Below, piece by piece: positions 33,130 through 61,760 of a DNA stretch of 64,000 nt. A program made the translations under genes and the position numbers. Under the pieces are notes generated by a model. That model saw nothing but the letters and a program-made list of their open reading frames with translations, was not told the DNA's origin and searched no databases. The stretch is taken from positions 1 to 64,000 of IMG/VR virus record IMGVR_UViG_2832142748_000002, one strand, 5' to 3'. This DNA is from a virus. Its lineage: Duplodnaviria > Caudoviricetes. Each line of letters opens with the position of its first letter. The stretch's first letter is position 1.

Positions 33130-33669
33130 CTAGTTCGTTGCCCCAACGGCTCTGTCCTTTCCGACGCCAAGCAACCAGTCGCGAAAGGCGGGCCAGGAGT
33201 CCTCAGTGATGAGTCCGCGTGCGGCAGCGTTCGCCTGCCACTCGCGGATGAGCCCGTCACCGCGCTGGAGCAGCCAGGGCCGCCCGAAGGCGGTCCGCTG
33301 CTCCAGCATGTACTTCTCGAACTCGGCCACCGTCTGCTCGAACGTGGCCAGCGGGTTGAAGACGAGCCAGTCGTAACCCTTGTCCTTCGCGTAGAAGCGC
33401 TCGTCCTGGCCGACCATCTCTACGGTGGAGTACTTCCCCCAGTCGTCGCTGCTGCCGGGGGCCGCGCCCGCGGACTCCAGCTGCACCAGCTCCTGCTCGA
33501 GCGCCGACTTCTTCACCAGCGTGGCGGAGTTCACCTCAGCGGCCGCGCGCGACAGTGCGGCTGAGGCATCGAGCTGCCCCTTGATGCGGGCGATCTCCAG
33601 CCGCAGGTCCCGCTTTCGGGCCTCGTTGGCGTTGATGGTGTAGACGTCGCTCTGCGTGAGGGTGGGCAT
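33130..33669 (-). CDS. Tail-associated hypothetical protein
   Basis: Directly follows the tail fibre gene with a GGAG RBS. Confidence 0.65.
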   Translation of the reverse strand: MPTLTQSDVYTINANEARKRDLRLEIARIKGQLDASAALSRAAAEVNSATLVKKSALEQELVQLESAGAAPGSSDDWGKYSTVEMVGQDERFYAKDKGYDWLVFNPLATFEQTVAEFEKYMLEQRTAFGRPWLLQRGDGLIREWQANAAARGLITEDSWPAFRDWLLGVGKDRAVGATN

Positions 33670-33678
33670 GGCCGACTC

Positions 33679-35814
33679 CTAGATGGGCTGCTTGATGTTG
33701 TGGCTGAGGAGGCCCGCGGACTCGTACGTCCGGGCCCCGTGCACGGTGAGCTTCACGACGGCGCCCTCCCCTTCCGGCGCGACGCGCCGCACGAGCCCCG
33801 GGCGCAGGCCCTCCAGCAGCTCGCCGGGCCGAAGCGCGCGGACCTGCGTCCAACCTGCGAAGCGCCGGTAGACGAGGTGGTTGGGCGTCGCAACCAGGAC
33901 GCGGCCATCCGTCAGCTCCACCCGCCAGCGCGCGGCCCGGTGGCTGGAGGCGGCCGTCACCTCAAAGGTGCCCACCCGGCGCGTGTCCTCGTGCTGGGTG
34001 AGGACGCGCATGCCGGGGCGGATGGACGCCGCAGGCACCTCCTGCCCGTCCTCCAGCGTGATGAGCGTCTCGGGCGCTACGCATGTGCCGCCCGTCCCGC
34101 CGGAGCCGCCGCCGCCGCCACCCGCGGGCGCGCCACTGAAGGGCGAGGTCGTGGACTTCGCGAAGTTGATGCCCAGCCCGGCGCCGAACGTGGGGGTGAA
34201 CCACATGGAGGCGCTCACGCCGTAGACGCCGTGCACCTCGCACAGGAGCGCGACGTACTCTCCCAGGTTCTGGCCGTAGAGCCCCGAGAGGGCCGCCGGG
34301 TACTGGAAGGTGTGGGTGATGGCGATGCGGTTGACCGCGTTGCCGTCCACTGCGGCGGCGTACTTCCGGTCCGCGAGGGTGATGTAGCGCGTGCCCCGGT
34401 ACGTGGCGCTGACGCTGCTGTAGTAGTCCACCTTGAGGTAGCGGAGCGCGTCGAGGTTGTCGTCGATGCTGGAGGGCTGGATGAAGAAGTGGTGCACCAG
34501 CCAGGAGTGGACGATGGGCGTCGTGTACCGGAAGTAGTCCGTGCACTGGACGTCCAGCCGGTCAATGAGCGGCGCCCCGCCGCGCACGCCCGTGTTGTTG
34601 CTCCCCCGGTAGTGGACGCGCCCCGCGGCCGATGTCCCATCCAGCGCCTGGTTGGCCCGGAAGAAAGGCGTGTCCAACAGGTAGCTACCAATCTGCACGT
34701 TGCCGCCGGCCGCCTTGAAGGCGGTGCCCACGTTGTCTAGCTTCGCCCCGGCGACGGGCACGCCGTTGCCGTCCTCCGCGTAGTTGGACGTCTGGAGGGT
34801 GTTGGCCACAAGCAGGTCGAACGTCACCATCTTCCGCATGGAGATGGCGTCCAGGTACACGGCCTTGCCGGCGTCCGCTCCCACGGCATTGAGCTCGAAG
34901 TACAGCTGCACGCCGGTGCACCCGGCCGGGCACGTGCCCTTCAGCTTCACGCGCTGGTAGCCCGTCGTGAGCGTGACGGCGACGGAGGTGATCTGACCGT
35001 CGTAGCTGCCGCTCGCCCCCTCCCAGAGAAGGAAGAGCGTCGCGCCAGACTGGGCGAGCGCGGCCGAGGACTTCACCCAGGCCTCGGCGTAGAACTGATC
35101 CCCAGCGGTGCACTTGATGCGGCCACCGGGTGCGGTGCTCCGGTAGCCGCCGATGAAGTTGAGGCCCACGAAGCCGCCCCCCACGGGCACGGGCAGCTTG
35201 CGGCACCAGCGCCCCTCCTTCGCGCTGGAGGGCTCCTCCACCAGCCTGTCACCCTCGGGGGACTGGCCCAGTGCGGCCGCGCCGGCTTCCGAGTACCCGT
35301 TGGGCACCAGGTTGTCCGTGGGCGGCAGCAGCAGGTGCGTGAAGCTGATGGCCGCCGCCGCCACCGCGGCGCTGGTGACGGAGCTCGCCGACATGTGCCG
35401 GGCGTAGACGCTCCCCGTCGGCACATTGGAGAGGTCCGCCACTGCCATGGTGAGGGTGTCCGGGTCCGCCACCACGCTACCGCCGAGGACGCGCCAGTTG
35501 CTCTGGCTGCCGTTGGTGTAGAGGGCCTGGACAGCGCACTGCACCTCCGTCGGCAGCTTCAGCTTCAGCGGCGCCACCCACCGTCTCTCGGAGGGGCCGA
35601 ACTTCCGGGGCTCCAGCAGGTAGCTGTCCGTGTTGTTGGGGTCGCTGCCCTCGTAGACGACGACCTGGAAGCCCGCGAGGAGGTGCGCGGGGAGCACCTC
35701 CTCGTGCGTCCAGCGGATGTCCAGGTAGCGCGACTTGACGAGCTGTGGGGAGCGGACGCCGTCCACCTCCCGGTCGTAGACGCCGGCCGCTTCTTCCTGC
35801 TCGCGCGAGCGCAT
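33679..35814 (-). CDS. Tail fibre / receptor-binding protein with a C-terminal Hint domain
   Basis: FN3-like N-terminus, CBM-like segment (NLVPNGYSE), Gly linker, Hint C...ATPNH...LLSHN (33697-34083). Confidence 0.8.
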   Translation of the reverse strand: MRSREQEEAAGVYDREVDGVRSPQLVKSRYLDIRWTHEEVLPAHLLAGFQVVVYEGSDPNNTDSYLLEPRKFGPSERRWVAPLKLKLPTEVQCAVQALYTNGSQSNWRVLGGSVVADPDTLTMAVADLSNVPTGSVYARHMSASSVTSAAVAAAAISFTHLLLPPTDNLVPNGYSEAGAAALGQSPEGDRLVEEPSSAKEGRWCRKLPVPVGGGFVGLNFIGGYRSTAPGGRIKCTAGDQFYAEAWVKSSAALAQSGATLFLLWEGASGSYDGQITSVAVTLTTGYQRVKLKGTCPAGCTGVQLYFELNAVGADAGKAVYLDAISMRKMVTFDLLVANTLQTSNYAEDGNGVPVAGAKLDNVGTAFKAAGGNVQIGSYLLDTPFFRANQALDGTSAAGRVHYRGSNNTGVRGGAPLIDRLDVQCTDYFRYTTPIVHSWLVHHFFIQPSSIDDNLDALRYLKVDYYSSVSATYRGTRYITLADRKYAAAVDGNAVNRIAITHTFQYPAALSGLYGQNLGEYVALLCEVHGVYGVSASMWFTPTFGAGLGINFAKSTTSPFSGAPAGGGGGGSGGTGGTCVAPETLITLEDGQEVPAASIRPGMRVLTQHEDTRRVGTFEVTAASSHRAARWRVELTDGRVLVATPNHLVYRRFAGWTQVRALRPGELLEGLRPGLVRRVAPEGEGAVVKLTVHGARTYESAGLLSHNIKQPI

Positions 35815-35824
35815 GCCCTCCCAT

Positions 35825-38305
35825 TTACGGAGGAGGCGTGGACGAAATCCCCAGGGTAAGGGTGGCAGGCACCGTGGGCACGGACACCACGAGGACGCTC
35901 GCCGCGCTGGTGCTGTAGTTGCCCGAGGTGTCGATGGCCTTCACGTGCACCAGCTGGTTGGTGCCCGGCGCCGGCAGGGCCCATTCGTAGGTGGTGGCTC
36001 GCACCTTGCCGATGAGGCTGCCCACCTCCCAGCTGCTGCCGTAGCGCAGCTCGTAGGTGTCCCGGTCCAGGTCCGGCACCTCCGCCCAGCGCAACGTCGC
36101 GGTGCTTCCGTTGAGGACGCAGGTGAGGCCCGTCACGTTGGAGGGAGGGGCCGCCTTGCCCACCACGGTGTGGCTGGCCGAGGCGTAGGTGGTGACGAGG
36201 CCGTTGAGGACGGCGGCCACCTGGACGGTGTACTCGCCCGGCAGGCAGTCCTGGAGCTCCCAGAAGTGCGTCTGCACCGGTGGCTCCGACGTCCAGTTGC
36301 CGCCCTCGCGCCGCCAGCGCACGCGGTACTCCGTGGCCGTGGCCACCTGCGTCCAGCGGGCCGTCACCATGACCTTCACGCCACCATTCGTCGTCTTGTA
36401 CAGCGACTCGCCCACCGCGAGGCCCGCAGGTGGCGCGGACGAGGGCAGCACGGACGTGGGCAAGGGCTGCAGCTTCACGCCGTGCTCCACCTCCGCGTAC
36501 TTCCCCGGCTCGTGGCGCAGGGCGGTGATTTCGTAGAGGTGCGGCTCCACCTCCGCGACGTTGAGGATGCGCCAGAGGGTGGGCGTCAAGTCGGACGCGG
36601 CCAGCACCCAGACGGCCTGGGGCTGGGGCGCGGCCGAGAAGGGCGTGGCCACCGTGAGGGCCCGGTACGGCGCCGGCGCGAGCGCGGCCAGCGGGCGCTC
36701 CTCCACGGTGCCGTCCGGCAGCACCGCGGAGAGGGCGTACGTCTTCCCTGCTTCCAGGGTGACGTCCGCGTCGAGCTCCACCTGGCTGGCGGTGGCGGCC
36801 ACCACGCGCCCGCCCCACCTGCGCCCGGCGCGGTATGGGTCCTGGAGCTTCACCACGGCGCCGGGGTTGCGCATGGCGCCCTCGAAGCCGGTGCGGAACG
36901 TCACCGTCTCCGTCTCCAGCCTCTCGGTGAGGAGCAGCCACCGGCCCACGCGCTGCGCCTGGCCCCGGGAGGTGCAGCCGAGCGCCACCACCTCGGTGGG
37001 GTTGTAGCCGTAGGTGGCGAGGCCCTCTTCGTCGGTGACGTACTCCTGGGCCACCTTGAAGTGGTTGTCCGGGTCGTTCCAGCTGACGAGGGCCACCGTG
37101 TGGCGTGCGCGCTTGCCGCTGGAGGCATACGTGAAGAGGCCCTCCACCACGTTGGCCGGCGTGAAGAGGTACTCGGCGTCGCGCGGCGCGTCCTGGGCGA
37201 CGAAGACGGCGCCGGAGGCCCAGTACGTCATGCCGCGGAAGACGGACGCGAGGTTGTTGATGACCTTGTACGCGTCCTCCTGCGTCTGGAGGTAGAGGTT
37301 GCAGCGGAAGCGCGGCTCCATGCCGCCCTTCCCGTCCGGCACCAACTCGTCGCAGTACTTCCCCACCGTGTAGAGGCCCCATTTGTCCACGGCGGCCTCG
37401 TTGAGGTAGCGGCCCAGGCCGTAGCGCTTCGTCGTCAGCAAGTCGTAGAAGCACCAGGCCGGGTTGTCCGTCCAGGCCACCTTCCACGTGCCGTCCCAGG
37501 TGCCCTCGTACGTCCGGGCCACGGGGTTGTAGTTGCTGGGCACGCGCACCCGCAGCCCGCGAATCCGGTAGCTGCGCGTGGGGATGCTGCTGAACTGGCT
37601 CGCCGGCACCTGCAGCGCGCAGAGGGCGGTGTTGGGGAAGGAGAGCTTCTCGTCCAGCAGCGTTGCGTAGGACTTCCAGAGGACCTTGTTCTGCTTCGTG
37701 ACGCTGTCGGCCTCCTCGCTGACGCGCGTGACGCGGATGTCCCACGGGGGCGAGCCCGTCAGCTCCACGCGGAAGGTGCGCTCGTAGGGGCTGGTGCACT
37801 TCCCGCGGAAGAGCTCCGCGCCCTGGAAGGACTGCTCCACGTAGCCGCCGCCGTTGCTCTGCACGGCGATGGAGACGAGGACGCGGGTGGGCAGCAGGTC
37901 GCCCGTCGTCGGATCCTGGTAGGTGAGCTGGGGCGCCTGGAGGGTGACGCGCACGGCGTCCACCCCCGGGTCCGTCACGGTGCGCACCACCGGGGTTGCG
38001 TGCTTCACCTCCACGCCCACGGAGTACTCCGCCTCGCCGGACGGGAAGCCGGGGATGTACTCCTGGGACTGCGTGCCGCGCACGTCGTAGACGGTGACGC
38101 CGGTGAAGTTGAAGGTGCCGTCGGGATTCTGGATGGCGACGCCGTCCAGGTAGACGGACTTCAGCCCGTCGACGAGGCCCTGAATCTCCCCCTCGCACAG
38201 CAGGTCCAACACGCGCGCCTTGGAGCTGGACTTCAACGTGTTCGGAGACTCGACGGGCGTCCGCTGGGCGCCGCCCTCCCCCTTGCCGCCGCTGCTGCCA
38301 CCCAT
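35825..38305 (-). CDS. Lambda gpJ-like central tail fibre / host specificity protein
   Basis: TPVESPNTLKS...DLLCEGEIQGL...AWTDNPAWCFYDLLT..RYGLG; FN3 repeats. Confidence 0.92.
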   Translation of the reverse strand: MGGSSGGKGEGGAQRTPVESPNTLKSSSKARVLDLLCEGEIQGLVDGLKSVYLDGVAIQNPDGTFNFTGVTVYDVRGTQSQEYIPGFPSGEAEYSVGVEVKHATPVVRTVTDPGVDAVRVTLQAPQLTYQDPTTGDLLPTRVLVSIAVQSNGGGYVEQSFQGAELFRGKCTSPYERTFRVELTGSPPWDIRVTRVSEEADSVTKQNKVLWKSYATLLDEKLSFPNTALCALQVPASQFSSIPTRSYRIRGLRVRVPSNYNPVARTYEGTWDGTWKVAWTDNPAWCFYDLLTTKRYGLGRYLNEAAVDKWGLYTVGKYCDELVPDGKGGMEPRFRCNLYLQTQEDAYKVINNLASVFRGMTYWASGAVFVAQDAPRDAEYLFTPANVVEGLFTYASSGKRARHTVALVSWNDPDNHFKVAQEYVTDEEGLATYGYNPTEVVALGCTSRGQAQRVGRWLLLTERLETETVTFRTGFEGAMRNPGAVVKLQDPYRAGRRWGGRVVAATASQVELDADVTLEAGKTYALSAVLPDGTVEERPLAALAPAPYRALTVATPFSAAPQPQAVWVLAASDLTPTLWRILNVAEVEPHLYEITALRHEPGKYAEVEHGVKLQPLPTSVLPSSAPPAGLAVGESLYKTTNGGVKVMVTARWTQVATATEYRVRWRREGGNWTSEPPVQTHFWELQDCLPGEYTVQVAAVLNGLVTTYASASHTVVGKAAPPSNVTGLTCVLNGSTATLRWAEVPDLDRDTYELRYGSSWEVGSLIGKVRATTYEWALPAPGTNQLVHVKAIDTSGNYSTSAASVLVVSVPTVPATLTLGISSTPPP

Positions 38306-38306
38306 G

Positions 38307-39365
38307 TCAGTCCTCCACCGTTGGGTCCGCCTTCTTCACGTTGTGGCTGAGGAGGCCGTCGGAGACGTAGGTGTGCGCGCCCGCCACGGTGAGGCGTACC
38401 ACCGGCCCGCGCTCACCGCGCGTCACCTGGCGCACCACGCCCGGCCGGGCGCCCACCAGTCGCGTGCCGGCCGCGAGGTGCCGCAGTTCCACCCAGGCGT
38501 CCTCCGTCCGCACGCGGTGGGTGCCGGTGGCCTCCAGGCGTCGGCCGTCCTCCAACTCCAGCAGCCAGCGGACGCCCTCGGCGGGCTCCGCTGCGATGAC
38601 GGGGAAGACGTCCCACTCCAGCGTCTCCTCGTCCTGGGTGCGCACCGCCATGCCCACCTGGACTTCGCCTGCCGGCACTTCCCGGCCGTCCGCCAGGAGG
38701 ATGGGCACCCACGGCGCGGGGCAGGTGCCGCCGCCAGGGGTGGTTCCGCCGACGCCCGTCTGTCCGCTGCCGCTGTTGCCCCCGAAGCCGCCGTCGGACC
38801 ACTCGGTGACGATGCCGGCGGAGACGACGCAGCTGCCCACCTCCATCTCCCCGTAGCAGATGGGCACCGGGTGGCCCTGGGCGAGCGTGTTGACGGGGCC
38901 GTTGAAGACGTAGCTGGGCTTGTTGGCGTCCTTCTCGTCAGGCCCATTCGCGGTGGGCGGGGCGAAGAGGAGCTGGGAGACGCCGCCGGCCATCAGGGAG
39001 ATGCCCGCGGTGATGAGGGGCACGCCCGCGCCGTACCCGTAGACGGAGAGGACGACGCCGGCGGCGATGAGCACCGCACCCGCCACCACCTGGAACCAGC
39101 CGGACTTCGCCCCGGCCAGCGCGGGCATGAGGGTGAGGACGCGCGCGCCGGTGGGCATGCCCAGGTCGTCCTCCCCCACGTCCCGCTTGCCCGCGAAGAC
39201 GTGGTAGCCGGGCTCGCTGTTCTCCGCGAGGTAGCGCCGGAAGCCGTCGCAGACGGCCGAGAGGGCGCGCACCGCCTCCGCAGGCGAGGGCACCGAGAGG
39301 TCCATCTTCCACACGCGCCCGAAGCGCTTCCCCAGCGGACCACCCAGGACGATGGTCGTCAGCAT
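38307..39365 (-). CDS. Lambda gpI-like tail assembly protein with an appended Hint domain
   Basis: LGGPLGKRFGR..SPAEAVRAL...FNGPVNTLAQGHPVPICYGEMEVGS; Hint C...ATGTH...LLSHN (38340-38723). Confidence 0.9.
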   Translation of the reverse strand: MLTTIVLGGPLGKRFGRVWKMDLSVPSPAEAVRALSAVCDGFRRYLAENSEPGYHVFAGKRDVGEDDLGMPTGARVLTLMPALAGAKSGWFQVVAGAVLIAAGVVLSVYGYGAGVPLITAGISLMAGGVSQLLFAPPTANGPDEKDANKPSYVFNGPVNTLAQGHPVPICYGEMEVGSCVVSAGIVTEWSDGGFGGNSGSGQTGVGGTTPGGGTCPAPWVPILLADGREVPAGEVQVGMAVRTQDEETLEWDVFPVIAAEPAEGVRWLLELEDGRRLEATGTHRVRTEDAWVELRHLAAGTRLVGARPGVVRQVTRGERGPVVRLTVAGAHTYVSDGLLSHNVKKADPTVED

Positions 39366-40090
39366 CGGGAGACGTGCCTCACGACGCGCTGGGTGATGCG
39401 CTCCCAGAAGCCGGAGTACGTCTCCCGGCCGGACAGGCGCCCCATGACGTGGTGCAGGAGGACATCCCCGCCCAGGTAGACGCCCGCGTGGTTGGGCACC
39501 GGGGCGCGCAGCTGCATAAGGAGGACGTCATGCTCGCGCAGGGCCTGGCCCGTCACATCCACGAAGCCCGCCCGGCCGAAGCCCTCCTGGTAGAGGTTGC
39601 CACCCTTCGCCCACCAGTCGTCCGGGCGCTCGAAGTCGGGCAGTGCCAGGCCCAGGCGCTCCCGGTAGTAGTCCTGGATGAGGGAGTAGCAGTCCAGGAC
39701 GCCGTGGCTGAAGGTGCGGCCCACCAGCGGCGGCCGGTAGCCGTCCGGGTACCAGAGGCACCAGTGCCCCACCGGCACGTTGAGGATAAGCCAGGGCAGG
39801 CCCCAGCGCTCCATCATCACCCGGTCCGCCTCGCTCGGCTCCGGCGCGGCGTTGGGGTGGGAGTGCACCACTGCCACCACCTCGCCATCCCCTTCCGCCC
39901 GCGCATAGTCCTCGGGCGACAGGACGAAGTGCGCCTGGCCGTCGGCGAGGTTCCGGCAGGGCCGGTACCGCTGGGCGCCTCCAACCAGCACCACGAGGCC
40001 GCAGGACTCGCGGGGATAGTCCGCCTGGGCGTGTGCGAACGCGGCGCCCAGGACGTCATCAGCCAGCGTCAGCCGGCAGGGGTCGACCAT
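39359..40090 (-). CDS. Lambda gpK-like JAB + NlpC/P60 tail assembly protein
   Basis: RESCGLVV, VHSHPNAAPEPSEAD, GVLDCYSL, NHAGVY. Confidence 0.92.
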   Translation of the reverse strand: MVDPCRLTLADDVLGAAFAHAQADYPRESCGLVVLVGGAQRYRPCRNLADGQAHFVLSPEDYARAEGDGEVVAVVHSHPNAAPEPSEADRVMMERWGLPWLILNVPVGHWCLWYPDGYRPPLVGRTFSHGVLDCYSLIQDYYRERLGLALPDFERPDDWWAKGGNLYQEGFGRAGFVDVTGQALREHDVLLMQLRAPVPNHAGVYLGGDVLLHHVMGRLSGRETYSGFWERITQRVVRHVSRC

Positions 40091-40146: not shown

Positions 40147-40974
40147 TCAATGCTGCATCTCGTTGATGACCGCATCCACGAACTGCAGGCGACACTCCGG
40201 AGCGGGATGTTTCGACTGCGCTTCGCCCTCATCACATCGGATTGGCAGAACCAGAGCCGGCTGCTCGCACGAAACGGAATTGATCCCGGCATCGGCAAGA
40301 TCGGCACGGGCGCGCGCAATCATCTTGGCGACAGGCGTATTGGGCGACTCGGCGAGAGCCCGGAGTTCCTCGTTCGTGACAACACCACCGTCGGCGCGCT
40401 TCATGTTTGGCCCTCTCAACCGGAGCATCAGCTGGAAAGAGCATGACTCAACGGAACGCGCGAACAGGCGCGCGCTCTCTTTATCTATTTTATCCTTCGC
40501 CTTTGGCCCGGCCCAGGCCACCCGACAGTCCTTGATGACGGGCCGCTTGAGGAGGAGGCCTCGCACTGTACCGTGGAAGGCAACAAGCTGCCCCTTCGCC
40601 AGCTCCGCGACGGCTTGCATCTGCTCGTCCGGAACAAGGCACATGACAGAGCTCATCATCTCGCCCACGTCCAGCGAGATGACGATGTTATCTGTCGCGT
40701 CCTTGGCAATGTCTTGGATGAGTCCCGTCACCTCCACCTGCTTGCTGCGGTACTTCATGTCCGCTGCCACCTCGTTCTCGGCGTAAGCCTCCCAAAGCTG
40801 GCGCGGGCCCACGAGGATGAGCCCTGGTGCGGCAGGAGCTGGAGGTGGACTGGGAGCCCTGGCGGCTGGGCCCGAGGTATCGCTGGGTGCTGCTGCCACC
40901 TGCTCCGGGGCCCGTCCCGCCTCCTGCTTGCACCCGACTACCGTCAGCACTGCAACAAGCCACCACGCGCGCAT
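40147..40974 (-). CDS. OB-fold (tRNA_anti-like) lipoprotein moron
   Basis: Lipobox VVG-C; YAENEVAADMKYRSKQVEVTGLIQDI. Confidence 0.75.
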   Translation of the reverse strand: MRAWWLVAVLTVVGCKQEAGRAPEQVAAAPSDTSGPAARAPSPPPAPAAPGLILVGPRQLWEAYAENEVAADMKYRSKQVEVTGLIQDIAKDATDNIVISLDVGEMMSSVMCLVPDEQMQAVAELAKGQLVAFHGTVRGLLLKRPVIKDCRVAWAGPKAKDKIDKESARLFARSVESCSFQLMLRLRGPNMKRADGGVVTNEELRALAESPNTPVAKMIARARADLADAGINSVSCEQPALVLPIRCDEGEAQSKHPAPECRLQFVDAVINEMQH

Positions 40975-41067
40975 CGTCCCCTCCAGTGAGACGTGGGAGG
41001 ACAGCACGGGGCACCAGAACGACGCAAGGAGTCGGGCTTGGCGGCGGGCGTCTCTGGAAAGGATGGA

Positions 41068-41611: not shown

Positions 41612-42541
41612 TCAGATGACCTCGATGGTCGGCTCAGCGTCTTCACCAGTGCCAACTGCGAGAACGCTCCGCCGCCGAGCCGGGTCAGCCTTCGAGCGCT
41701 CCTTCGCAACTTTCTGAACGAGGTCAGCTCGGTGGATGGTCGCGGCCGCTTCCGCCTTCACATCGTTCACGACCACGAGGCCGCAGGACGATGAGAGGTG
41801 ACGGGGCACTCCTTTCACCTTGACCGTCTCCCCGGAGAGCGATGCCAAGGCCGCATGCAGGCGACGCCGTGCCTGTTCCAGCGGAGTCGCTGGCATCACG
41901 ACAACAACCTCATCACCGCCCTTTCTGTAGGCATCGCCCACGTCGGAGACTGCCTTTTCGAGGACATGGAAGAACGCCTTGATGGCCTCATCGCCAGTGG
42001 CGTGATCACCGTCCTCGTTGAATGCCTTGAGCCCGTTCATGTCGAGATAGGCCACAGAAACTGGCGAATCTGCCTGGATATTCATAATGGCGATCGCCAA
42101 GTCACGCTCAGCATAGCGTCCATCGTAAAGGATATCAAAAGGCTCTCGAAGCCGGGTCGCCCGAAGCTCGTCTTGCAGTCGCGCCAATTCCAGTCGACCC
42201 AGGTGGCCCATCTCCAGGCCTACAGTCTGCCCCGACAATAGCCGCCCGACAAGCAATGCCTGTTCTCGGCGGTCTTCGCTCTCCATCTGCTGGGCGAGCG
42301 TACTCGTGTATCGCATGTCGATAGAGTCATAGCCCCTTCGAGTATCGGGGCCATTGAGGATGCCGCGATGAATGAGCGACATCACCATTTGCATTTTTTT
42401 CGCGGACATGAACTCACTCCCGCCCAGAGGGAATGAAACGCTAATCCAGCGCTCCTGCTCAAATCGAGCAAGGAACTGCAACTCGCGGAAACGAGCATCA
42501 TTCACGTAGTCAGCCATGCCGGATGGGTCCTCGTGCGCCAT
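41612..42541 (-). CDS. GGDEF-domain protein (diguanylate cyclase-like) moron
   Basis: AYLDMNGLKAFNEDGDHATGD...AYRKGGDEV; novel N-terminal domain; alternative start at 42517. Confidence 0.85.
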   Translation of the reverse strand: MAHEDPSGMADYVNDARFRELQFLARFEQERWISVSFPLGGSEFMSAKKMQMVMSLIHRGILNGPDTRRGYDSIDMRYTSTLAQQMESEDRREQALLVGRLLSGQTVGLEMGHLGRLELARLQDELRATRLREPFDILYDGRYAERDLAIAIMNIQADSPVSVAYLDMNGLKAFNEDGDHATGDEAIKAFFHVLEKAVSDVGDAYRKGGDEVVVVMPATPLEQARRRLHAALASLSGETVKVKGVPRHLSSSCGLVVVNDVKAEAAATIHRADLVQKVAKERSKADPARRRSVLAVGTGEDAEPTIEVI

Positions 42542-45486: not shown

Positions 45487-45804
45487 CTACCTCAACTCGC
45501 GTCGTCGTAACAGCCTGCCCGCGTAGTCCCGCTTGGCGTAGCAGTTCGTTGCCCGGTGTCCTTTGTGGCCGCAGCGGAAGCACACGAAGCCTTTCGCACC
45601 GTGGATGCGGCCGTGGACGCCTCGCGACACCGCAGTGAGGTTCTCCGGCCGGTTGTCCCCCTTGTCGCCGTTGATGTGGTGGACGACTTGCCCCTCTTGG
45701 AGAGGCCCCCCGAGCTTCTCCTCCATCGTGTAGACGTGGACGAACCGCATCCGTCCGTCACGGGCCCGGAACGTCTTGTAGCCGTTCTTCCATCCGAAGC
45801 TCAT
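45487..45804 (-). CDS. Mini HNH nuclease fused to a CCHC zinc knuckle
   Basis: VVHHINGDKGDNRPENL...H...H followed by CFRCGHKGHRATNC. Confidence 0.8.
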   Translation of the reverse strand: MSFGWKNGYKTFRARDGRMRFVHVYTMEEKLGGPLQEGQVVHHINGDKGDNRPENLTAVSRGVHGRIHGAKGFVCFRCGHKGHRATNCYAKRDYAGRLLRRRELR

Positions 45805-45957
45805 GCGGCCTCCTGGGTGCCCACGTGGCGGCAGTGCTACGTGGGGAACCCCAATAGCATACCACAAAAGACCACATTGGACCACCTGCACGAATGAATG
45901 AGCCCCGCATATGCGGAGTAGCCGCTGGGCGGCTGAGTTACTGACGACGCCAAGCTC

Positions 45958-47050
45958 AAGGCGAACGTGGAAGCGCGGCTGGTGCGCGTGGGCGACGCGC
46001 TGGTGGCGCTGGAGAAGGCCGCGCGGCTCGCGCCGGACGCGGCCGTGCTGCTGGACCTGGAGGACCTGAGCCTGCGCTGCGAGCGGCCCGAGCATGCCCG
46101 CAGTGCGCTGGAGTCGCTGCTGTCCACGCTGCCGCGCACCGCGGCGCCGGAGAAGCTGGCGGACGTGCGCGCGCGGCTGGGCCGGGCGTGTGAGCTCCTG
46201 GGCGACCGTGAGGGCGCCATTGCCGCGTACGCGCAGGCGTTCCCGCTGCGGCGGCTGGACGACGTGCGCGCCACTCGGCTGGAAGCCCTCTACACGGAGG
46301 CCGGCGAGATGCAGGCACTGGCCGAGCTATGGGCCACGCGCGCGCAGGCGCTGGCGGGCGCGGACCGGTCGGAAGAAGCGGCGCCGCTGTTCTTCCAGAG
46401 CGCGCGCGCCCTGCTGGAGCGCGGGGAGAAGGCCGCCGCGCTGATGCGCCTGGCTTCCGCGCTGGAGGCGAGCCCCGAGGGACCGCTCGCCGCGGAAGTG
46501 CTGGAGGCCCTGGCCGAGCTGGAGCTGGAGCGCGGCGAGAAGCTGGAGGCGGCGCGGCTGTACGCGCGGCGGGCCACGCTGGTGCCAGAGGCCCGGGCGG
46601 GCGCGAAGCTGCTCTTCCGCGTCGCTGCTGGCCGCGGGCACCAGCCGCGAGGAGGCCTTCCTCGCCGAGGCGCTGGAGCGCGACGCGACGTTCGCGCCCG
46701 CGCGGATCCGCCGGGGCGAGCTGCGGCTGACCACGGATGCCCGCGCCGCGCTGGAGGACTTCGAGGCGGTGCTGGCCCTGCCGCCCGCGGACGTGGATGC
46801 CCCGCGTGAGGCGGAGCGCGTGGCCCTCACGCGCAAGGCCGCCACCGCCGCCGTGCGCGCGAACCGCACGGACGCGGCCCGGCGCCTGCTCGCGGAGTTC
46901 TGCGCGCGCACGCCGAAGGACTTGGACGCGCGGCTTGAGTTGGCCGCGCTGCACCGCAAGGCCGGCGCCAGCCGGGCCCGGGCGGACCTGCTGGCGGAGC
47001 TGTGGCCGCGCCTCGCCGGAGCCGCCCGCTGCCCGCCCTGCGAATCCTGA
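45958..47050 (+). pseudogene. Fragment B of a large myxobacterial TPR protein
   Basis: TPR-like helices, frameshift near 46621, ends DLLAELWPRLAGAARC; abrupt GC rise. Confidence 0.65.
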
Positions 47051-47317: not shown

Positions 47318-50300
47318 CTACCGCCCCCGGACGAACGTGTACGTCATGCCTCCGGGGGCCATCTCCTCGCGCATCACCTTCCGGACTGCGTCCGCGAGGC
47401 GGCGGCCCAGACGCTCCGCCTCCGCGCGCCCGCCCTCCCCTGACGCGCTCACCTGGGAGGAGCCGTCCGAGTTGATGGTGATGGAGATGGTCTGGTTAAC
47501 GTCCCCTCCCCCCAGCGCCTCGTTGGGGACGATGCGGCCGGAGCTGGAAGGGATGAAGAGCTCCGGCCCCAACTCGCCCACCAGGTGCGCCTGCTGCGCG
47601 CGGACGGACCCGCCGGCCGCGTGCGCGCCGCCCAGCATGAAGTTGTAGGTGCCGCTCATGTCCGCGCCGCCGACCATGGTGGAGCCGCTGCCGCCGGACG
47701 AGCCCATCCCGCTGATGGCGTCCATGCCCAGGTTGACGAGCGCCATGAAGGCCTTCTGCGCCGCGAGCCGCGCCAGGTCCTTCAGGATGCCATCCACGAG
47801 GGCGGAGAACTCCAGCCGGCCCGTGGTGACGAAATTCGCGAAGGCGTCCGCCATGTGCTGCGTGGCCGTGCCGACGATCTCCTTCGTGTAGGAGAAGCCA
47901 CCGTGGAGCTGGTCCTGGAGGCGCTCCACTTCCTGCCGGTACTGCTCCGCGGTGATGCGCCCCTCGGCGAAGAGCTGCTTCACCATCTCCAGGCGCTTCT
48001 GCAGCTCCGCCGTCGGGTTGAGCTGCTTGGCGAGTTGGTCCATCTCCGTCTTCAGCGCCGCCTCGGCCTTGCCCTCCGGCGTCCACATCTCCCGGGCCTT
48101 CTTCATGGCCTTCGCGTACTCCTCCGCCTTGATGCGCTGAGCCGCGAGCTCCTCGCCCAGCAGCTTCTGGGCCTGGGCGTACTTCACGGTGTCCTGATTG
48201 CCCAGCTCGCGATTGAGGCTCTGGAGCACCTGCTTGCGCTCCTCCTCCGCCTTCTTCACCCGCTCCGTCTCCTCCTTCTGCTTCCGGAGGGCCTCCAACT
48301 GGGCGATGGCCGCGTCCGCCCGCGCGATCATCTTCGGGTCTTTCAGCGAGCGGTATTCGTCGGAGAGCTCCTTCGCTTCGTCCTTCGTCTTGCCGAGGGT
48401 GCGCGCCTCCTCTTCCAGGTTCATCAGCCACTGCTCCTGGCGCTTGAGCAGCTTCTCCCGGGCCTTCTCCTCCTGCTCTGCCTCCTTGAGTGAGGCCTTC
48501 GTGTTGGCGGTGCTCTCCTTCGCGGCGGCCGCGCTCACCTTCGCGTCTTCCGCTCGTGCAGCCCGCACCCGCTGGAGGCTCTTCTCGATGTCGGCCGCGC
48601 GCTGCATTTGGATGCTGAGATCCTTCTCCAGGGGCGCTAGCTTCTTCTCAATGTCCTCGGCGTAGGCGGGGTCCGCACGAACCTTCGAGAATGGCACGTC
48701 ACGACCTATGTTCTTCGACAGCCTTTCATCGTTGTAGTGATTCAGCACGATCCAACGCTTCACGCCGTTGTTGGGATCGTTGATTTCCTTTTCGAGCCGG
48801 TCAATCTCAGCCAAGGCCGCCACCAGATCCTCCTGGGAGAGGCTTTCGTAAACCCTGACGACATCCTCCGCTGAGTCGCCAACGTTTTTCAGGGCATCCT
48901 GGTATCTCCCCCCCAGCGACGCCATTTCCGTGCGCGCGATAGCGGCGGCCTTCTGCGCCTTCTCGTAGTCCTTGAGGGCCTTCGTTTCGCGGATGAGGTT
49001 CTCCGCGATTTGACTGCCACGGGTGGCGTTGGCGCCGCTCTCTTGAGCGAACTGCCGCGTCTTCTCCTTCGCGTCCTCTGCGGCTTTGCCGTACTCGTGC
49101 CAGAGGGCGACCGCCGTGGTGAGGGCGCCGGTGATGATGCCGATGGGCCCACCCATGAACTCCAGCGCCGTCTTCCCCGCGCGCGCCGCCAGGGACGCGC
49201 CCTCGATGGCTGACGCCTCCCTCACCTTCGCCAGCGCCAGCTCCGTGGAAGCCAGCGTGGCACGCTTCGTCGCCGACATGAGGCTGCCCTCCACGGCCGC
49301 CGAAGCCTGGAGCGCCGCGAGCTTCTTCTCCAACATGGCCTGCGCCGAGCGGAGCGCGGCGATGCGGCTCTCGTCGGCGGCCCGGGCGTACTTCGCCTCG
49401 GCGAGCGCGGCGCTCGCAGCGGACTCGCGCGCCTGGGTGAGCGCGGTGGACTTCGCAACCAGCCCCTTCACCCACTCCTGGGCCCACGTGGCCCCGCGCA
49501 TGGCCGCCACCACCACCAGCGCCTCACCGAAGAGCTTCACGGCGTAGGTGGCCGTCTCGAAGTTCTCCGTCAGCGCCCGGACTCCCGGCTCCGTCGCGGA
49601 GAGGATGTCGCCGCCCACCTCGCCCTGGAGCTCCGAGAAGCGCGCGCGGAGCTGGTCCAAGGCGAATTGGGGCGTGCTCGCCATCTTGTTGAAGGCGGCC
49701 TCCGTGCGTCCGGCGGAGTCCTGCATGTGCTTCAGGGAGGCGGCGAAGTCCGCGGAGGCGGTGCCGGTGAGCGTCATCACCGGAAGCAGGGCTTCCACGC
49801 CCCCGAAGAGCATGGCCATCTCCTCGGTACTGCCACGCGTCTTCTCTTTCACGTCCTGGAGGAAGCCGGCGAGCCCTTTGGCCTTCAGCGCGGTGACGGA
49901 GAACTCCAGGCCGAGCGCGTCCGCGAGCTTCGCTGCTTCGTGGGACGGCTTCGCGGTGGCGGCGATGATGGCGCGCAGGCCTTCCATGGCCGTGGACGTC
50001 TGGATGTTGTTCTTCGTGAGGGCACCCGTGGCCGCGAGCAGTTCCGCGAGGCTGACGCCCGTCTGGGAGGCGATGGGGGCCACCCGGCCGATGAAGCGTG
50101 AGAGGTCCTCGATGCTCGTCTTCCCATCCGCGGCGCTCACGAACATCATGTCCGCCGCCTGGGTGACGTTGCGCAGCTGGCTGCCGTAGCTGGCCATGAC
50201 GCCCGTCAGGCCGTCCGCAGCCGTCCTCACGTCCGTCACGCCGCCAATGGCCAGCTTGTTGGAGACGGTGAGCAACTCCGTGGCCTTCGCCGCGTCGCTC

Positions 50301-51061
50301 GCGCCCGCGCTGAGGATTTCGTAGAGGGCCCCGGCCTGGTCCGTGGGTGTCCGGCCGAACTGGTTGCCCAGCTCCTTCACCTTCGCGGTGAGGGAGTCCA
50401 TCATCCCCAGCTGGTCCTGCTCCAGCACCGTGGAAACCTGGGCCATCGCCGTCGAGAACCGCAGCGCCTCTTCCGTGGCGCTCTTGATGGCGGCTCCCGC
50501 CGCCGCGACGCCGAGGAACTGGCCCGCCAGGCTCTTCATCCCGTCCGCGAACTTGCTCACCGGAGGCTCGGCCTTTGCGGCCTCCTCCTTCACCTTGCGG
50601 AGAGCGTCCGCCGCCCCCTCTTTCTGCTTCCCCATCTCGTCGAAGCGCTTGTTGAGGGACTCCACATGCCCCAGGAAGCGCGACAGCGCGGACGTGTCCG
50701 CGAGCGTCGCCTGGAGCTTTCCGGCCGCGCCACCGAGGGACATGAGCTGGGCCTCCAGCGCCCCCGTCGCCGTCGCCGTCGCCGTGAAGGCTGTCTGGAT
50801 CTTCGCCGCGGACTGCTCCAGCACCGAAAGGTGCGAGGTGGCGGCCCGGATGTCGGCCAGCGCCTTCGACGTGCCGTCCAGGCTCCGCGTCGCGCGGGCG
50901 AAGGCCTTCGTGAGGGCCTCGGTGGCGTTCTCCAGGCCCGATGTCCTCCGCTCCGTCTTCTCGGCAGCCTCCTCCAGCCCACCCAGCGACGTGACGGCCT
51001 CTTTCGCGTCGGAGGTGTCGATGCGGATGCTCAGCTCAGCCAGGTCAAAGCCACCGGACAT
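47318..51061 (-). CDS. Tape measure protein
   Basis: 1247-aa Ala-rich helical protein with a TP901-type core (FSTAMAQVSTV...GKTSIEDL) and a lambda-H-like C-terminus (LVGELGPELFIP..GRIVPN). Confidence 0.92.
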   Translation of the reverse strand: MSGGFDLAELSIRIDTSDAKEAVTSLGGLEEAAEKTERRTSGLENATEALTKAFARATRSLDGTSKALADIRAATSHLSVLEQSAAKIQTAFTATATATGALEAQLMSLGGAAGKLQATLADTSALSRFLGHVESLNKRFDEMGKQKEGAADALRKVKEEAAKAEPPVSKFADGMKSLAGQFLGVAAAGAAIKSATEEALRFSTAMAQVSTVLEQDQLGMMDSLTAKVKELGNQFGRTPTDQAGALYEILSAGASDAAKATELLTVSNKLAIGGVTDVRTAADGLTGVMASYGSQLRNVTQAADMMFVSAADGKTSIEDLSRFIGRVAPIASQTGVSLAELLAATGALTKNNIQTSTAMEGLRAIIAATAKPSHEAAKLADALGLEFSVTALKAKGLAGFLQDVKEKTRGSTEEMAMLFGGVEALLPVMTLTGTASADFAASLKHMQDSAGRTEAAFNKMASTPQFALDQLRARFSELQGEVGGDILSATEPGVRALTENFETATYAVKLFGEALVVVAAMRGATWAQEWVKGLVAKSTALTQARESAASAALAEAKYARAADESRIAALRSAQAMLEKKLAALQASAAVEGSLMSATKRATLASTELALAKVREASAIEGASLAARAGKTALEFMGGPIGIITGALTTAVALWHEYGKAAEDAKEKTRQFAQESGANATRGSQIAENLIRETKALKDYEKAQKAAAIARTEMASLGGRYQDALKNVGDSAEDVVRVYESLSQEDLVAALAEIDRLEKEINDPNNGVKRWIVLNHYNDERLSKNIGRDVPFSKVRADPAYAEDIEKKLAPLEKDLSIQMQRAADIEKSLQRVRAARAEDAKVSAAAAKESTANTKASLKEAEQEEKAREKLLKRQEQWLMNLEEEARTLGKTKDEAKELSDEYRSLKDPKMIARADAAIAQLEALRKQKEETERVKKAEEERKQVLQSLNRELGNQDTVKYAQAQKLLGEELAAQRIKAEEYAKAMKKAREMWTPEGKAEAALKTEMDQLAKQLNPTAELQKRLEMVKQLFAEGRITAEQYRQEVERLQDQLHGGFSYTKEIVGTATQHMADAFANFVTTGRLEFSALVDGILKDLARLAAQKAFMALVNLGMDAISGMGSSGGSGSTMVGGADMSGTYNFMLGGAHAAGGSVRAQQAHLVGELGPELFIPSSSGRIVPNEALGGGDVNQTISITINSDGSSQVSASGEGGRAEAERLGRRLADAVRKVMREEMAPGGMTYTFVRGR

Positions 51062-59534: not shown

Positions 59535-59749
59535 CGCGTCCCCCGCTTCACCTGGACGGGTGCGTTGGAGCGCTGCTCGCGGAGATGCCGCGCCTGATGC
59601 AGCTCACGCAGACGGCGGCGTACCTTCCGCGCACCGCGGCGGTTGGAGCGGAACCAGTGGGCGGCCCGCGCGAAGTCTTCCGTGAGGCACGGCAGTTGCT
59701 CCCCAAGGAGTCCCGCCGCGCACAGCGTCTCGTCATGGAGCAGCTTCAC
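59531..59749 (-). CDS. Small basic hypothetical protein
   Basis: Four-base start/stop overlaps with both portal and gp7. Confidence 0.55.
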   Translation of the reverse strand: MKLLHDETLCAAGLLGEQLPCLTEDFARAAHWFRSNRRGARKVRRRLRELHQARHLREQRSNAPVQVKRGTR

Positions 59750-61227: not shown

Positions 61228-61760
61228 CCGGGCACCACGAGGAAGGGGCCTCGCACGCCGTTGTTGAAGCGCTCCGCCGCGCGAAGGGCCGTACGCACGC
61301 GCTCCACCGGCTTCGCGCCCTTGGTGGCGAAAAGGGCTCCGCGCGCGACGTCCGCACCGCAGCCGACAGCCGCGAAGGAGTCCCGCGACTCGCCCACCTG
61401 GTAGTCGTCTTCGACCGTGAAGAGGCGGCCGCAGACGCCCACCAGGAAGTGGCCACCGCGCTCCTGTCCGTTCTCCTGGTGCGCGAAACCCGCGTCCTTC
61501 AGCGTCGCGCGCAAGGCATCAACGAAGTCCACCACCATGAAGCGCTCCAGGGCGCTTGTCCGGCGAGGTGGCGGCGGCGGCCGGAAGGCGTGGCGCAGCA
61601 CCTGTCCCATCCGGAAGGAGGTGGTGAAACCGAGGACGTAGGGCCCGTTGCGGAACACCTTCGCGTCCTTCCGCACCACCAACTGCCAGCTGTTGGAGCC
61701 AGCGCTGTCCCCGCCGACGTACACGCGTCCCTGGTGAACCACTCCGGCAATGCACGTCAC
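61224..61760 (-). CDS. HslV / proteasome-beta-like Ntn threonine peptidase
   Basis: After Met removal: T1, D17 and K33 at canonical spacing; AAVGCG in place of AIGSG. Confidence 0.8.
   Translation of the reverse strand: MTCIAGVVHQGRVYVGGDSAGSNSWQLVVRKDAKVFRNGPYVLGFTTSFRMGQVLRHAFRPPPPPRRTSALERFMVVDFVDALRATLKDAGFAHQENGQERGGHFLVGVCGRLFTVEDDYQVGESRDSFAAVGCGADVARGALFATKGAKPVERVRTALRAAERFNNGVRGPFLVVPG

What the first reader, a model, noticed from the sequence alone, without database searches (positions are those of the whole stretch)
38307..39365. Lambda gpI-like tail protein carrying an appended self-processing Hint domain
Seen: the normal gpI end (YGEMEVGSCVVSAGIVT) is followed by a Gly-rich linker, then GGGT|C-Hint-TxxH-SHN and VKKADPTVED. 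The +1 residue is Val, so canonical splicing is not expected. Known: gpI has a ubiquitin-like fold and partners with the JAB protein gpK; BIL/Hedgehog Hints form an N-terminal thioester that is hydrolysed or attacked by an external nucleophile. Inference: the Hint could activate the gpI C-terminus without E1/E2 and ligate it. A candidate acceptor is the adjacent gpJ, whose N-terminus is GGSSGG after Met loss. This would be a phage self-conjugation or tail-locking mechanism.
Basis: partly seen in the sequence, partly recalled or inferred. Interest (0 to 1): 0.88.

Follow-up and report, generated by a model that had tools for sequence, protein, structure and literature searches.

The report
Self-cutting Hint domain capping phage gpI
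A Corallococcus prophage makes its tail-tip plug protein (lambda gpI type) with an extra intein-like "Hint" domain at the end that very probably cuts itself off; the same unannotated cap sits on the neighbouring fibre gene and on many other phage tail proteins, and I found no paper describing what it is for.

Summary
The gene lies on the minus strand (38307-39365, 352 aa). It encodes a complete lambda-type gpI, a 24-residue Gly-rich linker, and a 128-residue Hint domain with Cys1, TxxH and His-Asn. The +1 residue is Val and a 10-residue tail follows.

The Hint models at pLDDT 90-96 and superposes on DnaB mini-inteins and on solved BIL domains.

It is not specific to gpI:
- A 49%-identical copy ends the 711-aa fibre gene after gpJ.
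- An exhaustive search found 303 protein clusters (E<=1e-10) in which this Gly-linker/Hint/x-Lys cassette caps gpJ, fibres, spikes and gpI.
- Both junction chemistries are almost invariant. A +1 Cys/Ser/Thr is almost never present. Lys at +1 or +2 occurs in 96%.

Best reading: a type-A-BIL-like, non-canonical self-excising module that matures tail-tip proteins.

The ubiquitin-like domain is N-terminal, and its conserved Gly lies 130 residues before the Hint. The proposed gpJ acceptor N-terminus is not conserved. Lysine-directed ligation, as in Tetrahymena BUBL BIL2, is not excluded.

This scan found the same cap on other phage DNA before. New here are the gpI fusion and its constant pairing with a second Hint. 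Nothing was tested biochemically.

The parts
38307..39365 (-). Whole gpI-Hint gene (352 aa plus stop). Its start overlaps the gpK stop by 7 nt.
39111..39365 (-). Residues 1-85: ubiquitin-like beta-grasp domain of gpI, ending in the conserved ...LAGAK glycine (G85).
   Evidence: AF2 pLDDT ~75-93 with a strand/helix pattern that I take to be beta-grasp, not checked by fold search. PF06805 is weak (E 8e-4, below cut-off). G85 is invariant in A3. Domain description in PMC1779556.
38967..39101 (-). Residues 89-133: two hydrophobic helices, the counterpart of lambda gpI H1/H2.
   Evidence: AF2 helices at 89-108 and 114-133. Lambda H1/H2 are predicted transmembrane helices (PMC11101478).
38796..38933 (-). 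Residues 145-190: conserved gpI C-terminal (TAPI-C, plug and beta-strand) region. Ordinary gpI proteins end here.
   Evidence: phrog_32 covers residues 2-188. Invariant F154, N159, T160, G164, Y171, G172, G177, A183, G184 in A3. Disordered in the monomer model.
38724..38795 (-). Residues 191-214: Gly-rich linker ending GGGT, the N-terminal scissile junction.
   Evidence: In the family, positions -2 and -3 are Gly in 87 and 84 of 140 domains.
38340..38723 (-). Residues 215-342: Hint domain. Cys215, TxxH (T280..H283), Arg324 at the block F Asp position, H331-T-Y, S340-H341-N342.
38307..38339 (-). Residues 343-352, VKKADPTVED, plus the stop codon: short C-flank with Val at +1 and the family-conserved Lys at +2.
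39359..40090 (-). gpK homologue (JAB plus NlpC/P60).
   Evidence: Pfam Prok-JAB E 2.1e-18 and NLPC_P60 E 9e-11. phrog_30 E 1.5e-110.
35825..38305 (-). gpJ homologue (826 aa). It is short, ends after FN3-type domains and has no Hint.
   Evidence: FNIII-A_GpJ E 6.9e-37 and Phage-tail_3 E 3.6e-25. phrog_31 E 1.4e-287.
33679..35814 (-). 711-aa fibre protein after gpJ, ending in the second Hint.
   Evidence: phrog_18983 tail fibre E 2.1e-5. NCBIfam GTA_spike_fiber domain is weak. NCBI names its orthologues 'Hint domain-containing protein'.
33697..34083 (-). Second Hint domain (fibre residues 578-706: Cys578, TPNH, SHN, then IKQPI).
   Evidence: 49% identity to the gpI Hint, blastp E 5e-35. Own-genome search finds only these two close copies.
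33130..33669 (-). 179-aa ORF that follows the fibre-Hint gene. It is conserved next to fibre-Hint genes in relatives, matches no family, and may be a fibre accessory protein.
   Evidence: (40% identical ORF after the fibre-Hint gene in L022).

Best explanation
The gene encodes a complete lambda-type tail-tip plug protein, gpI. Its C-terminus is extended by a flexible Gly linker and a type-A-BIL-like Hint domain.

Inferred mechanism:
1. After translation, Cys215 attacks the Thr214-Cys215 peptide bond (N-S acyl shift). This gives a thioester at the new gpI C-terminus.
2. Asn342, helped by His341, cyclises and cuts the bond to Val343.
3. The thioester is then resolved in one of two ways. Water may hydrolyse it, giving plain cleavage. 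Or an amine of the short C-flank may attack it: the freed alpha-amine, as proposed for type-A BILs, or the conserved Lys344 side chain.
4. Either way the 14-kDa Hint leaves, and mature gpI, with or without a decapeptide tag, remains in the tail tip.

The cassette (Gly linker, Hint, x-Lys, few residues) is a general, movable C-terminal cap of phage tail-tip and fibre proteins. It most likely works as a removable maturation or assembly module. In function it resembles the self-cleaving C-terminal chaperone domains of tailspikes (my own knowledge), but it uses Hint chemistry.

Shown here: domain identities, fold, residue conservation, distribution and gene context. Inferred: every chemical step and the biological purpose.
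For: Identity of the parts:
- gpI: phrog_32 E 1.6e-55 over residues 2-188.
- Plain gpI proteins end at residue ~190 of this protein.
- Hint: 4o1r E 6.7e-5 end to end; NCBIfam intein N- and C-terminal models weak; AF2 pLDDT 90-96.
- Foldseek: 1mi8 E 3.8e-12 TM 0.84; BUBL BIL2 6y75 E 8.9e-12; C. thermocellum BIL 2lwy TM 0.84; Hedgehog 1at0.

Both junctions are under selection. In 172 family domains:
- Cys1 162/164
- block B His 172/172
- penultimate His 170/171
- terminal Asn 171/171

Canonical splicing is excluded:
- The +1 residue is K/V/A/I/L/M in 144 of 157 domains, Ser or Thr in 7, and never Cys.
- The block F Asp position is K or R in 119/172.

The module is general:
- 706 representative clusters at E<=1e-3 and 303 at E<=1e-10.
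- Carriers are gpI (7/41 small proteins), gpJ phrog_31 (9/54), tail protein phrog_1101 (8/54), Phage-tail_3 (11/54), Rcc01698_C (4/54), fibres and spikes.
- The Hint sits within 15 residues of the C-terminus in 93 of 157 domains.

Context:
- A second copy ends the fibre in this prophage.
- In all 4 loci with complete downstream genes, gpI-Hint co-occurs with a Hint on gpJ or on the post-J fibre.
- gpI-Hint is not one clade in the Hint tree: at least 3 changes are forced. A divergent second lineage exists.
[quoted passage not shown] Other gpI proteins carry unrelated C-terminal extensions. The C-terminus therefore tolerates an appendage.

Type-A BIL behaviour (His-Asn, no +1 nucleophile, cleavage at either end) is summarised in PMC7765530.
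Against: - There is no biochemical or proteomic evidence of processing for any member.
- No match was found among 50,697 deposited phage genomes, so no studied virion carries the module.
- No Pfam Hint-clan model reaches its cut-off on either copy.
- If only removal were needed, the invariant His-Asn and the 96%-conserved Lys just after it would be unnecessary. That hints at a more specific reaction.
- About a third of family members have more than 60 residues after the Hint. 'C-terminal cap' does not describe all of them.
- The benefit of a removable cap on gpI is conjecture.
Confidence: 0.65

Rival explanations
1. Lysine-directed ligation, BUBL-like. The thioester at the gpI C-terminus is resolved by a lysine epsilon-amine. 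This could be the module's own conserved Lys344, giving a branched tag. It could also be a lysine of a neighbouring tail protein or of the host envelope, giving ATP-free covalent cross-links in or from the tail tip. The fibre Hint would do the same at the distal fibre end.
For: - Lys at +2 in 127/171 domains and at +1 in 38/171.
- His-Asn is invariant although the C-flank is only 2-10 residues long.
- Tetrahymena BUBL BIL2 is the second-best structural match. It is reported to form a K(epsilon-NH2)-C-terminus isopeptide and to conjugate its N-flank to other proteins without ATP (PMC8616854).
- The Hint sits at the receptor-proximal end of fibres and gpJ in many members.
Against: - No data on products exist.
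- Conserved +1/+2 residues may only shape the active site for Asn cyclisation.
- In BUBL the nucleophilic Lys lies in a folded ubiquitin-like C-flank, not in a short tail.
- The family is only ~15-17% identical to BIL2.
Confidence: 0.15
2. First reader's model. The Hint activates the gpI C-terminus like an E1/E2-free ubiquitin system and ligates it to the free alpha-amine of gpJ (GGSSGG after Met removal), locking the tail tip.
For: - Thioester chemistry is plausible.
- gpJ starts 2 nt after the gpI stop and begins MGGSSGG.
- Natural TAPI-TAPJ fusion proteins exist (PMC1779556).
[quoted passage not shown] A joined I-J chain is therefore structurally conceivable.
Against: - The ubiquitin-like domain is N-terminal, with its Gly at residue 85 (PMC1779556).
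- In L015, L016, L017 and L019 the called gpJ has roughly 9-23 residues before the Gly-rich stretch.
- The same stretch occurs in Hint-less L024.
- The same Hint caps gpJ itself (L019) and fibres, where this acceptor makes no sense.
Confidence: 0.05
3. Hitch-hiking, intein-like passenger. The cassette has no adaptive role. It persists at the recombination-prone 3' ends of tail genes because it removes itself cleanly. It spread within the phage from the fibre gene to gpI.
For: - gpI-Hint was found only where a fibre or gpJ Hint is also present (4 of 4 informative loci).
- Fibre-Hint occurs without gpI-Hint.
- The gpI label needs at least 3 origins on the tree.
- Catalytic residues would be conserved under this model too.
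- An HNH_3 endonuclease gene lies in the tail module at 45487-46095.
Against: - There is no endonuclease inside the Hint.
- The two copies in one phage are only 30-59% identical, no closer than orthologues, so the spread is not recent.
- Persistence in hundreds of divergent clusters at one kind of site, with a conserved linker and Lys, suggests function.
Confidence: 0.1
4. The Hint is not removed and serves as a permanent outer decoration or binding domain of the tail tip.
For: Other gpI proteins carry unrelated C-terminal add-on domains. The lambda gpI C-terminus pairs with the gpJ FNIII-A domain (PMC10721106). That this site faces outward is my assumption.
Against: Near-invariance of Cys1, the block B His and His-Asn is not expected for a purely structural domain.
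Confidence: 0.05

Closest known systems
Type-A bacterial intein-like (BIL) domains (Amitai 2003; Dassa 2004, as cited in PMC7765530; C. thermocellum BIL, PDB 2LWY) and Pfam PT-HINT (PF07591)
   Same: - Hint fold.
- N-terminal Cys and C-terminal His-Asn.
- No Cys/Ser/Thr at +1.
- Placed in variable, non-housekeeping proteins.
- 2lwy superposes at TM 0.84.
- 23 of 54 family members touch PT-HINT at E<1e-3.
   Different: - The hosts are phage tail-tip and fibre proteins.
- There is usually no cargo after the domain, only 2-15 residues.
- Own hallmarks: Gly linker, C-P-A-P start, K/R at the block F Asp position, Lys at +1 or +2.
- This protein scores 14.1 bits against the PT-HINT cut-off of 27.7.
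Tetrahymena thermophila BUBL BIL2 (PDB 6Y75, 6TMM)
   Same: - A ubiquitin-like domain and a BIL-type Hint in one polypeptide.
- A non-canonical reaction that uses a lysine amine and needs no ATP (PMC8616854).
- Second-best structural match, E 8.9e-12.
   Different: - In BUBL the ubiquitin-like domain ends directly at Cys1. Here 130 residues (two hydrophobic helices and the plug region) separate G85 from Cys215.
- The C-flank here is a decapeptide, not a second ubiquitin-like domain.
- Identity is 15-17%.
Class 1 mini-inteins (Ssp/Npu DnaB, 1MI8, 4O1R)
   Same: - Best sequence and structure matches.
- Blocks A, B, F and G are recognisable, including the 'GR..(A/S)T..HR' stretch and the ending 'HN'.
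   Different: - No +1 nucleophile.
- Block F Asp is replaced by Arg or Lys.
- The domain is not inserted in a conserved site of a housekeeping protein but appended after the normal end of the host protein.
- It therefore cannot restore a host protein by canonical splicing.
Lambda gpI / TAPI (PF06805, PHROG 32) with gpK and gpJ
   Same: - Residues 1-190 are an ordinary gpI: beta-grasp, two hydrophobic helices, C-terminal plug region.
- The gene sits between gpK (JAB plus NlpC/P60) and gpJ.
   Different: - Carries 162 extra residues.
- NCBI names its relatives only 'tail assembly protein' or 'hypothetical protein'.
Self-cleaving C-terminal intramolecular chaperone domains of tailspikes and fibres (Peptidase_S74). 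This is a functional analogy from my own knowledge.
   Same: A C-terminal domain of a trimeric tail protein that is released by autoproteolysis after doing its job.
   Different: Unrelated fold and chemistry (Ser-Lys dyad versus Cys thioester and Asn cyclisation). Pfam gave no S74 match for this protein.

Membership tests
Lambda gpI / tail assembly protein I (PF06805, PHROG 32) | Sequence match over the whole gpI length | tested here: met
   phrog_32 E 1.6e-55, residues 2-188 on profile positions 4-198 of 203. PF06805 reaches only 20.1 bits against a cut-off of 23.8.
Lambda gpI / tail assembly protein I (PF06805, PHROG 32) | N-terminal ubiquitin-like beta-grasp ending in a conserved Gly, followed by hydrophobic helices and a C-terminal domain | tested here: met
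   AF2 model. G85 and 18 further columns are invariant with stand-alone gpI. Architecture as described in PMC1779556 and PMC11101478.
Lambda gpI / tail assembly protein I (PF06805, PHROG 32) | Gene between gpK (JAB plus NlpC/P60) and gpJ | tested here: met
Canonical (class 1) intein | Hint fold with Cys/Ser at position 1, block B TxxH, and terminal His-Asn | tested here: met
Canonical (class 1) intein | Cys, Ser or Thr at +1 | tested here: not met
   Val343 here. In the family, 7 of 157 domains have Ser or Thr and none has Cys.
Canonical (class 1) intein | Inserted inside a conserved host protein whose two halves continue across it | tested here: not met
   Stand-alone gpI proteins end about 25 residues before Cys215. 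Only 10 non-homologous residues follow the Hint.
Canonical (class 1) intein | Block F Asp (defining role from my own knowledge) | tested here: not met
   Arg324 here. K or R in 119/172 family domains.
Type-A BIL domain | Hint with N-terminal Cys, conserved C-terminal His-Asn and no +1 nucleophile | tested here: met
   Definition taken from PMC7765530.
Type-A BIL domain | Sits in variable regions of non-conserved bacterial proteins | tested here: inconclusive
   It sits at variable C-termini of many different tail proteins. gpI itself, however, is a conserved protein.
Type-A BIL domain | Match to the family's sequence model (PT-HINT PF07591 used as proxy) | tested here: not met
   14.1 and 15.8 bits against a cut-off of 27.7 for the two copies. 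23/54 relatives match at E<1e-3.
Type-A BIL domain | Autocleavage or splicing activity | not testable with these tools
   Needs expression and mass spectrometry.
BUBL-type ubiquitin-dispensing BIL | The C-terminal Gly of the ubiquitin-like domain directly precedes Cys1 | tested here: not met
   G85 versus Cys215.
BUBL-type ubiquitin-dispensing BIL | A lysine amine resolves the thioester | not testable with these tools
   Lys at +1 or +2 is conserved in 165/171 domains. This is compatible but not a test.
Hedgehog Hog domain | Sterol-recognition region after the Hint; no terminal Asn step | tested here: not met
   Only 10 residues follow the Hint, and His-Asn is invariant.

The most novel reading that the evidence does not exclude
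The Gly-linker/Hint/x-Lys cassette is an ATP-independent protein-ligation module of phage tails. The thioester made at the C-terminus of gpI, and of the distal fibre, is captured by a lysine amine. The lysine could be the module's own conserved Lys, or one on gpJ, another tail protein or the host envelope. The result would be covalent isopeptide links in the tail tip or to the cell surface. This would be a bacterial-virus counterpart of Tetrahymena BUBL conjugation.
Probability: 0.15. Interest if true: 0.85.

Novelty: new variant of a known kind. Interest (0 to 1): 0.6.

Why it matters
Known routes for maturing phage tails are host or phage proteases and Ser-Lys self-cleaving chaperone domains (my own knowledge). 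Hint (thioester plus Asn cyclisation) chemistry at the ends of tail-tip proteins turned up in no paper in my nine literature searches. It is also missing from Pfam-level annotation of these proteins.

The family is large, with 303 clusters at E<=1e-10. It sits on the parts that decide host range and DNA release: the gpI plug, gpJ and the fibres.

If it only cuts itself off, it is a new maturation route and a natural source of small self-removing tags. If the conserved Lys makes isopeptides, it would be a second natural case of Hint-driven protein conjugation, this time in viruses of bacteria.

The gpI case is well suited for testing, because lambda gives a structural frame for where the processed end sits.

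Tried and rejected
- tblastn of the Hint against 50,697 GenBank phage records found no match at E<=1e-5.
- The search for related loci on genome contigs failed twice. The first alignment was too diverse. With the closer alignment, the pattern [AD]GLLSHN[VIA]K gave 5 stretches, none confirmed.
- PHROG scan of ten members with long regions after the Hint: 7 had no match, and the matches in the other 3 did not identify the C-terminal region, so I could not say what the Hint separates there.
- The Hint tree (172 rows, 135 columns) is too poorly resolved to order events. I use only the lower bound of 3 changes. I did not run the AU test for gpI monophyly.
- Within-phage identity between the gpI Hint and the fibre Hint showed no sign of recent duplication.
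- Literature searches found no description of Hint-capped tail proteins. The library omits most subscription journals, so this is not proof of absence.
- Read-through or frameshift joining gpI to gpJ was considered and rejected. gpJ lies in another frame after a TGA stop, with its own ATG, and nothing supports recoding.
- The Myxococcaceae tally (22 of 121 genomes with any Hint-like match) includes one weak match in the unpublished genome G049. No claim here rests on it.
Full report
**What is there**

The window is 67% G+C. The closest relatives of the gene are in Corallococcus (93% identity), then Pyxidicoccus and Myxococcus. The genome is 10.8 Mb.

Coordinates 33.1-63.8 kb hold a siphophage-type morphogenesis block, all on the minus strand. 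In order:
- terminase (62251-63807)
- portal (59746-61227)
- Mu-F-like protein
- capsid
- tape measure (47318-51061)
- an HNH_3 endonuclease (45487-46095)
- gpM and gpL
- two inserted genes (GGDEF, 41612-42541; OB-fold tRNA_anti-like, 40147-41007)
- gpK (JAB plus NlpC/P60, 39359-40090)
- the gene in question (38307-39365)
- gpJ (35825-38305)
- a 711-aa fibre (33679-35814)
- a 179-aa ORF

The 352-aa product matches PHROG 32 'tail assembly protein' over residues 2-188 (E 1.6e-55). Aligned with stand-alone gpI proteins of Cupriavidus, Achromobacter, Dyella and others, those proteins stop where residue ~190 lies here (A3).

Then come 24 Gly-rich residues ending GGGT, then Cys215. The last 138 residues match the NpuDnaB mini-intein from end to end (E 6.7e-5). 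They also touch NCBIfam's intein N- and C-terminal models weakly.

AlphaFold2, run on a 22-sequence alignment, gives:
- a confident N-terminal domain whose strand and helix pattern I take to be the beta-grasp (residues 1-81); no fold search tested this
- two helices (89-133)
- a disordered stretch (135-213)
- a Hint at pLDDT 90-96 (215-344)

Foldseek ranks the Ssp DnaB mini-intein first (E 3.8e-12, TM 0.84). The Tetrahymena BUBL BIL2 domain is next (E 8.9e-12), the C. thermocellum BIL is at TM 0.84, and the Hedgehog autoprocessing domain comes further down.

No Pfam Hint-clan model reaches its cut-off on this copy or the fibre copy. NCBI names relatives of this gene only 'tail assembly protein' or 'hypothetical protein'.

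**It is not a gpI peculiarity**

The fibre gene after gpJ ends in a paralogous Hint: 49% identity, E 5e-35, Cys578, SHN, then IKQPI. These are the only two close copies in the genome.

An exhaustive phmmer run of the Hint against 1.84 billion representative proteins gave 706 hits at E<=1e-3 and 303 at E<=1e-10. In the best 150 proteins (157 domains):
- The domain is preceded by a Gly run.
- It starts C-P-A-P and ends (L)LSHN.
- It lies within 15 residues of the C-terminus in 93 cases.
- 50 have more than 60 residues after it, and some proteins carry two in tandem.

The carriers are tail proteins:
- gpI in 7 of 41 small members
- gpJ (phrog_31) in 9 of 54 large members
- tail protein phrog_1101 in 8
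- Phage-tail_3 in 11
- Rcc01698_C in 4
- plus fibres and spikes

In other Myxococcaceae the homologous fibre, about 1,090 aa with the Hint, occurs with no lambda-type K, I, L or J gene in the about 13 kb upstream that I fetched.

**Conservation says both ends react but not by canonical splicing**

Over 172 aligned domains:

| Position | Count |
|---|---|
| Cys1 | 162/164 |
| Block B His | 172/172 |
| Penultimate His | 170/171 |
| Terminal Asn | 171/171 |
| Block F Asp position is Lys or Arg (Arg324 here) | 119/172 |
| Lys at +2 | 127/171 |
| Lys at +1 | 38/171 |

The +1 residue is K, V, A, I, L or M in 144 of 157 domains, Ser or Thr in 7, and never Cys.

This is the signature given for type-A BIL domains: conserved His-Asn, no C-flank nucleophile, cleavage at either end (PMC7765530). 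From my own knowledge of Dassa et al. 2004 (reference 69 of that review), a type-A BIL with Ala at +1 also spliced. The proposed route is Asn cyclisation first, then attack of the freed alpha-amine on the thioester.

**Where the appendage would sit**

In lambda virions gpI is a trimer. Residues 135-223, up to the last residue, are resolved. [quoted passage not shown] The two hydrophobic helices are thought to enter the outer membrane on opening, while the C-terminal strands stay on gpJ (PMC11101478).

Other gpI proteins carry unrelated 60-130-residue C-terminal extensions. A second, divergent gpI-Hint lineage also exists (P0204, P0251). The gpI C-terminus is therefore a tolerated attachment point.

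1. The ubiquitin-like domain is N-terminal. Its conserved terminal Gly is G85 (A3). Iyer et al. predicted that the gpK JAB domain cuts there (PMC1779556). The Hint is joined 130 residues later, to the plug part, so it cannot 'activate a ubiquitin-like C-terminus'.

2. The proposed acceptor is not conserved. In four other gpI-Hint phages the called gpJ has roughly 9-23 residues before the Gly-rich stretch. A Hint-less Achromobacter-type prophage has the same stretch.

3. In locus L019 the Hint caps gpJ itself, and elsewhere it caps fibres. That acceptor is meaningless there.

In its favour:
- Natural TAPI-TAPJ fusions exist (PMC1779556).
- BUBL BIL2 shows that a Hint can conjugate its N-flank to a lysine without ATP (PMC8616854).

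I therefore keep ligation as a minority reading. Lysine-directed ligation stands at 0.15 and the gpJ alpha-amine version at 0.05.

**A pattern worth noting**

In every locus with complete downstream genes, gpI-Hint comes with a second Hint on the distal protein:
- the post-J fibre in this window, in Pyxidicoccus L015 and in soil contig L016
- gpJ itself in L019

Two further loci are truncated. The Myxococcus eversor gpI-Hint and fibre-Hint proteins lie on contigs of identical length.

The reverse does not hold. The two Hints of one phage are 30-59% identical, no closer than orthologues. On the poorly resolved Hint tree, gpI carriers need at least 3 origins. This fits either old intragenomic spread of the cassette or a functional link. 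Four loci are too few to decide.

**Verdict**

This is a real, complete Hint on a real gpI. It most probably excises itself (0.65). It belongs to a large, unannotated, tail-specific branch of BIL-like domains. This scan has met that branch before on other phage DNA (e1-3482894, e1-3291780, e1-3318316), and the same fusion in two related genomes (e1-5867746, e1-5867761). New here are the gpI host, the pairing rule, and the arguments against the ubiquitin-style reading. All chemistry is inferred.

Noticed in passing
window 33679-35814 (-): The 711-aa fibre after gpJ ends in a second Hint (Cys578 ... SHN, then IKQPI) that is 49% identical to the gpI one. NCBI names its orthologues 'Hint domain-containing protein', whereas the gpI fusion is not flagged.
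   Followed up: yes
window 40147-41007 and 41612-42541 (-): Two non-structural genes sit between gpL and gpK: an OB-fold tRNA_anti-like protein and a GGDEF diguanylate-cyclase-domain protein. They look like prophage cargo ('morons'). The Pyxidicoccus relative has a different insert at the same place (a 565-aa gene with weak AAA_16 and faint KAP_NTPase matches, on the opposite strand).
   Followed up: partly
window 45487-46095 (-): A free-standing HNH_3 endonuclease gene lies inside the tail module, between the tape-measure gene and gpM.
   Followed up: no
window ~61757-62240 (-): A Prok-JAB domain (E 1.8e-10) is encoded between the terminase and portal genes. The 641-aa ORF listed there overlaps the terminase frame, so the real gene is probably a short JAB protein. 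It would be a second JAB besides gpK.
   Followed up: partly
G000 contigs C512:22866-23297 and C56:3278-3625: Two more distant Hint-like matches occur elsewhere in the genome, in open frames of ~2,100 and ~685 aa (E 7e-16 and 4e-10 to the family profile). Similar ~2,000-aa frames occur in many Myxococcaceae. They are probably toxin-type PT-HINT proteins, not tail proteins.
   Followed up: no
proteins P0204, P0251 (metagenomic gpI, 354-355 aa): A second, much more divergent Hint (start C-V-V-I-D, end HHN-K) is fused to gpI behind a GGMGGG linker. This looks like an independent gpI-Hint fusion.
   Followed up: partly
proteins P0005, P0011, P0017, P0026, P0032, P0063 and others: Some family members carry two Hint domains in tandem, or a Hint followed by 100-600 further residues of unknown nature. 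There the Hint may cut a polyprotein rather than cap it.
   Followed up: partly
locus L016 12853-15420: The post-J fibre Hint of this soil contig ends LLSSN, so the penultimate His is replaced by Ser.
   Followed up: no
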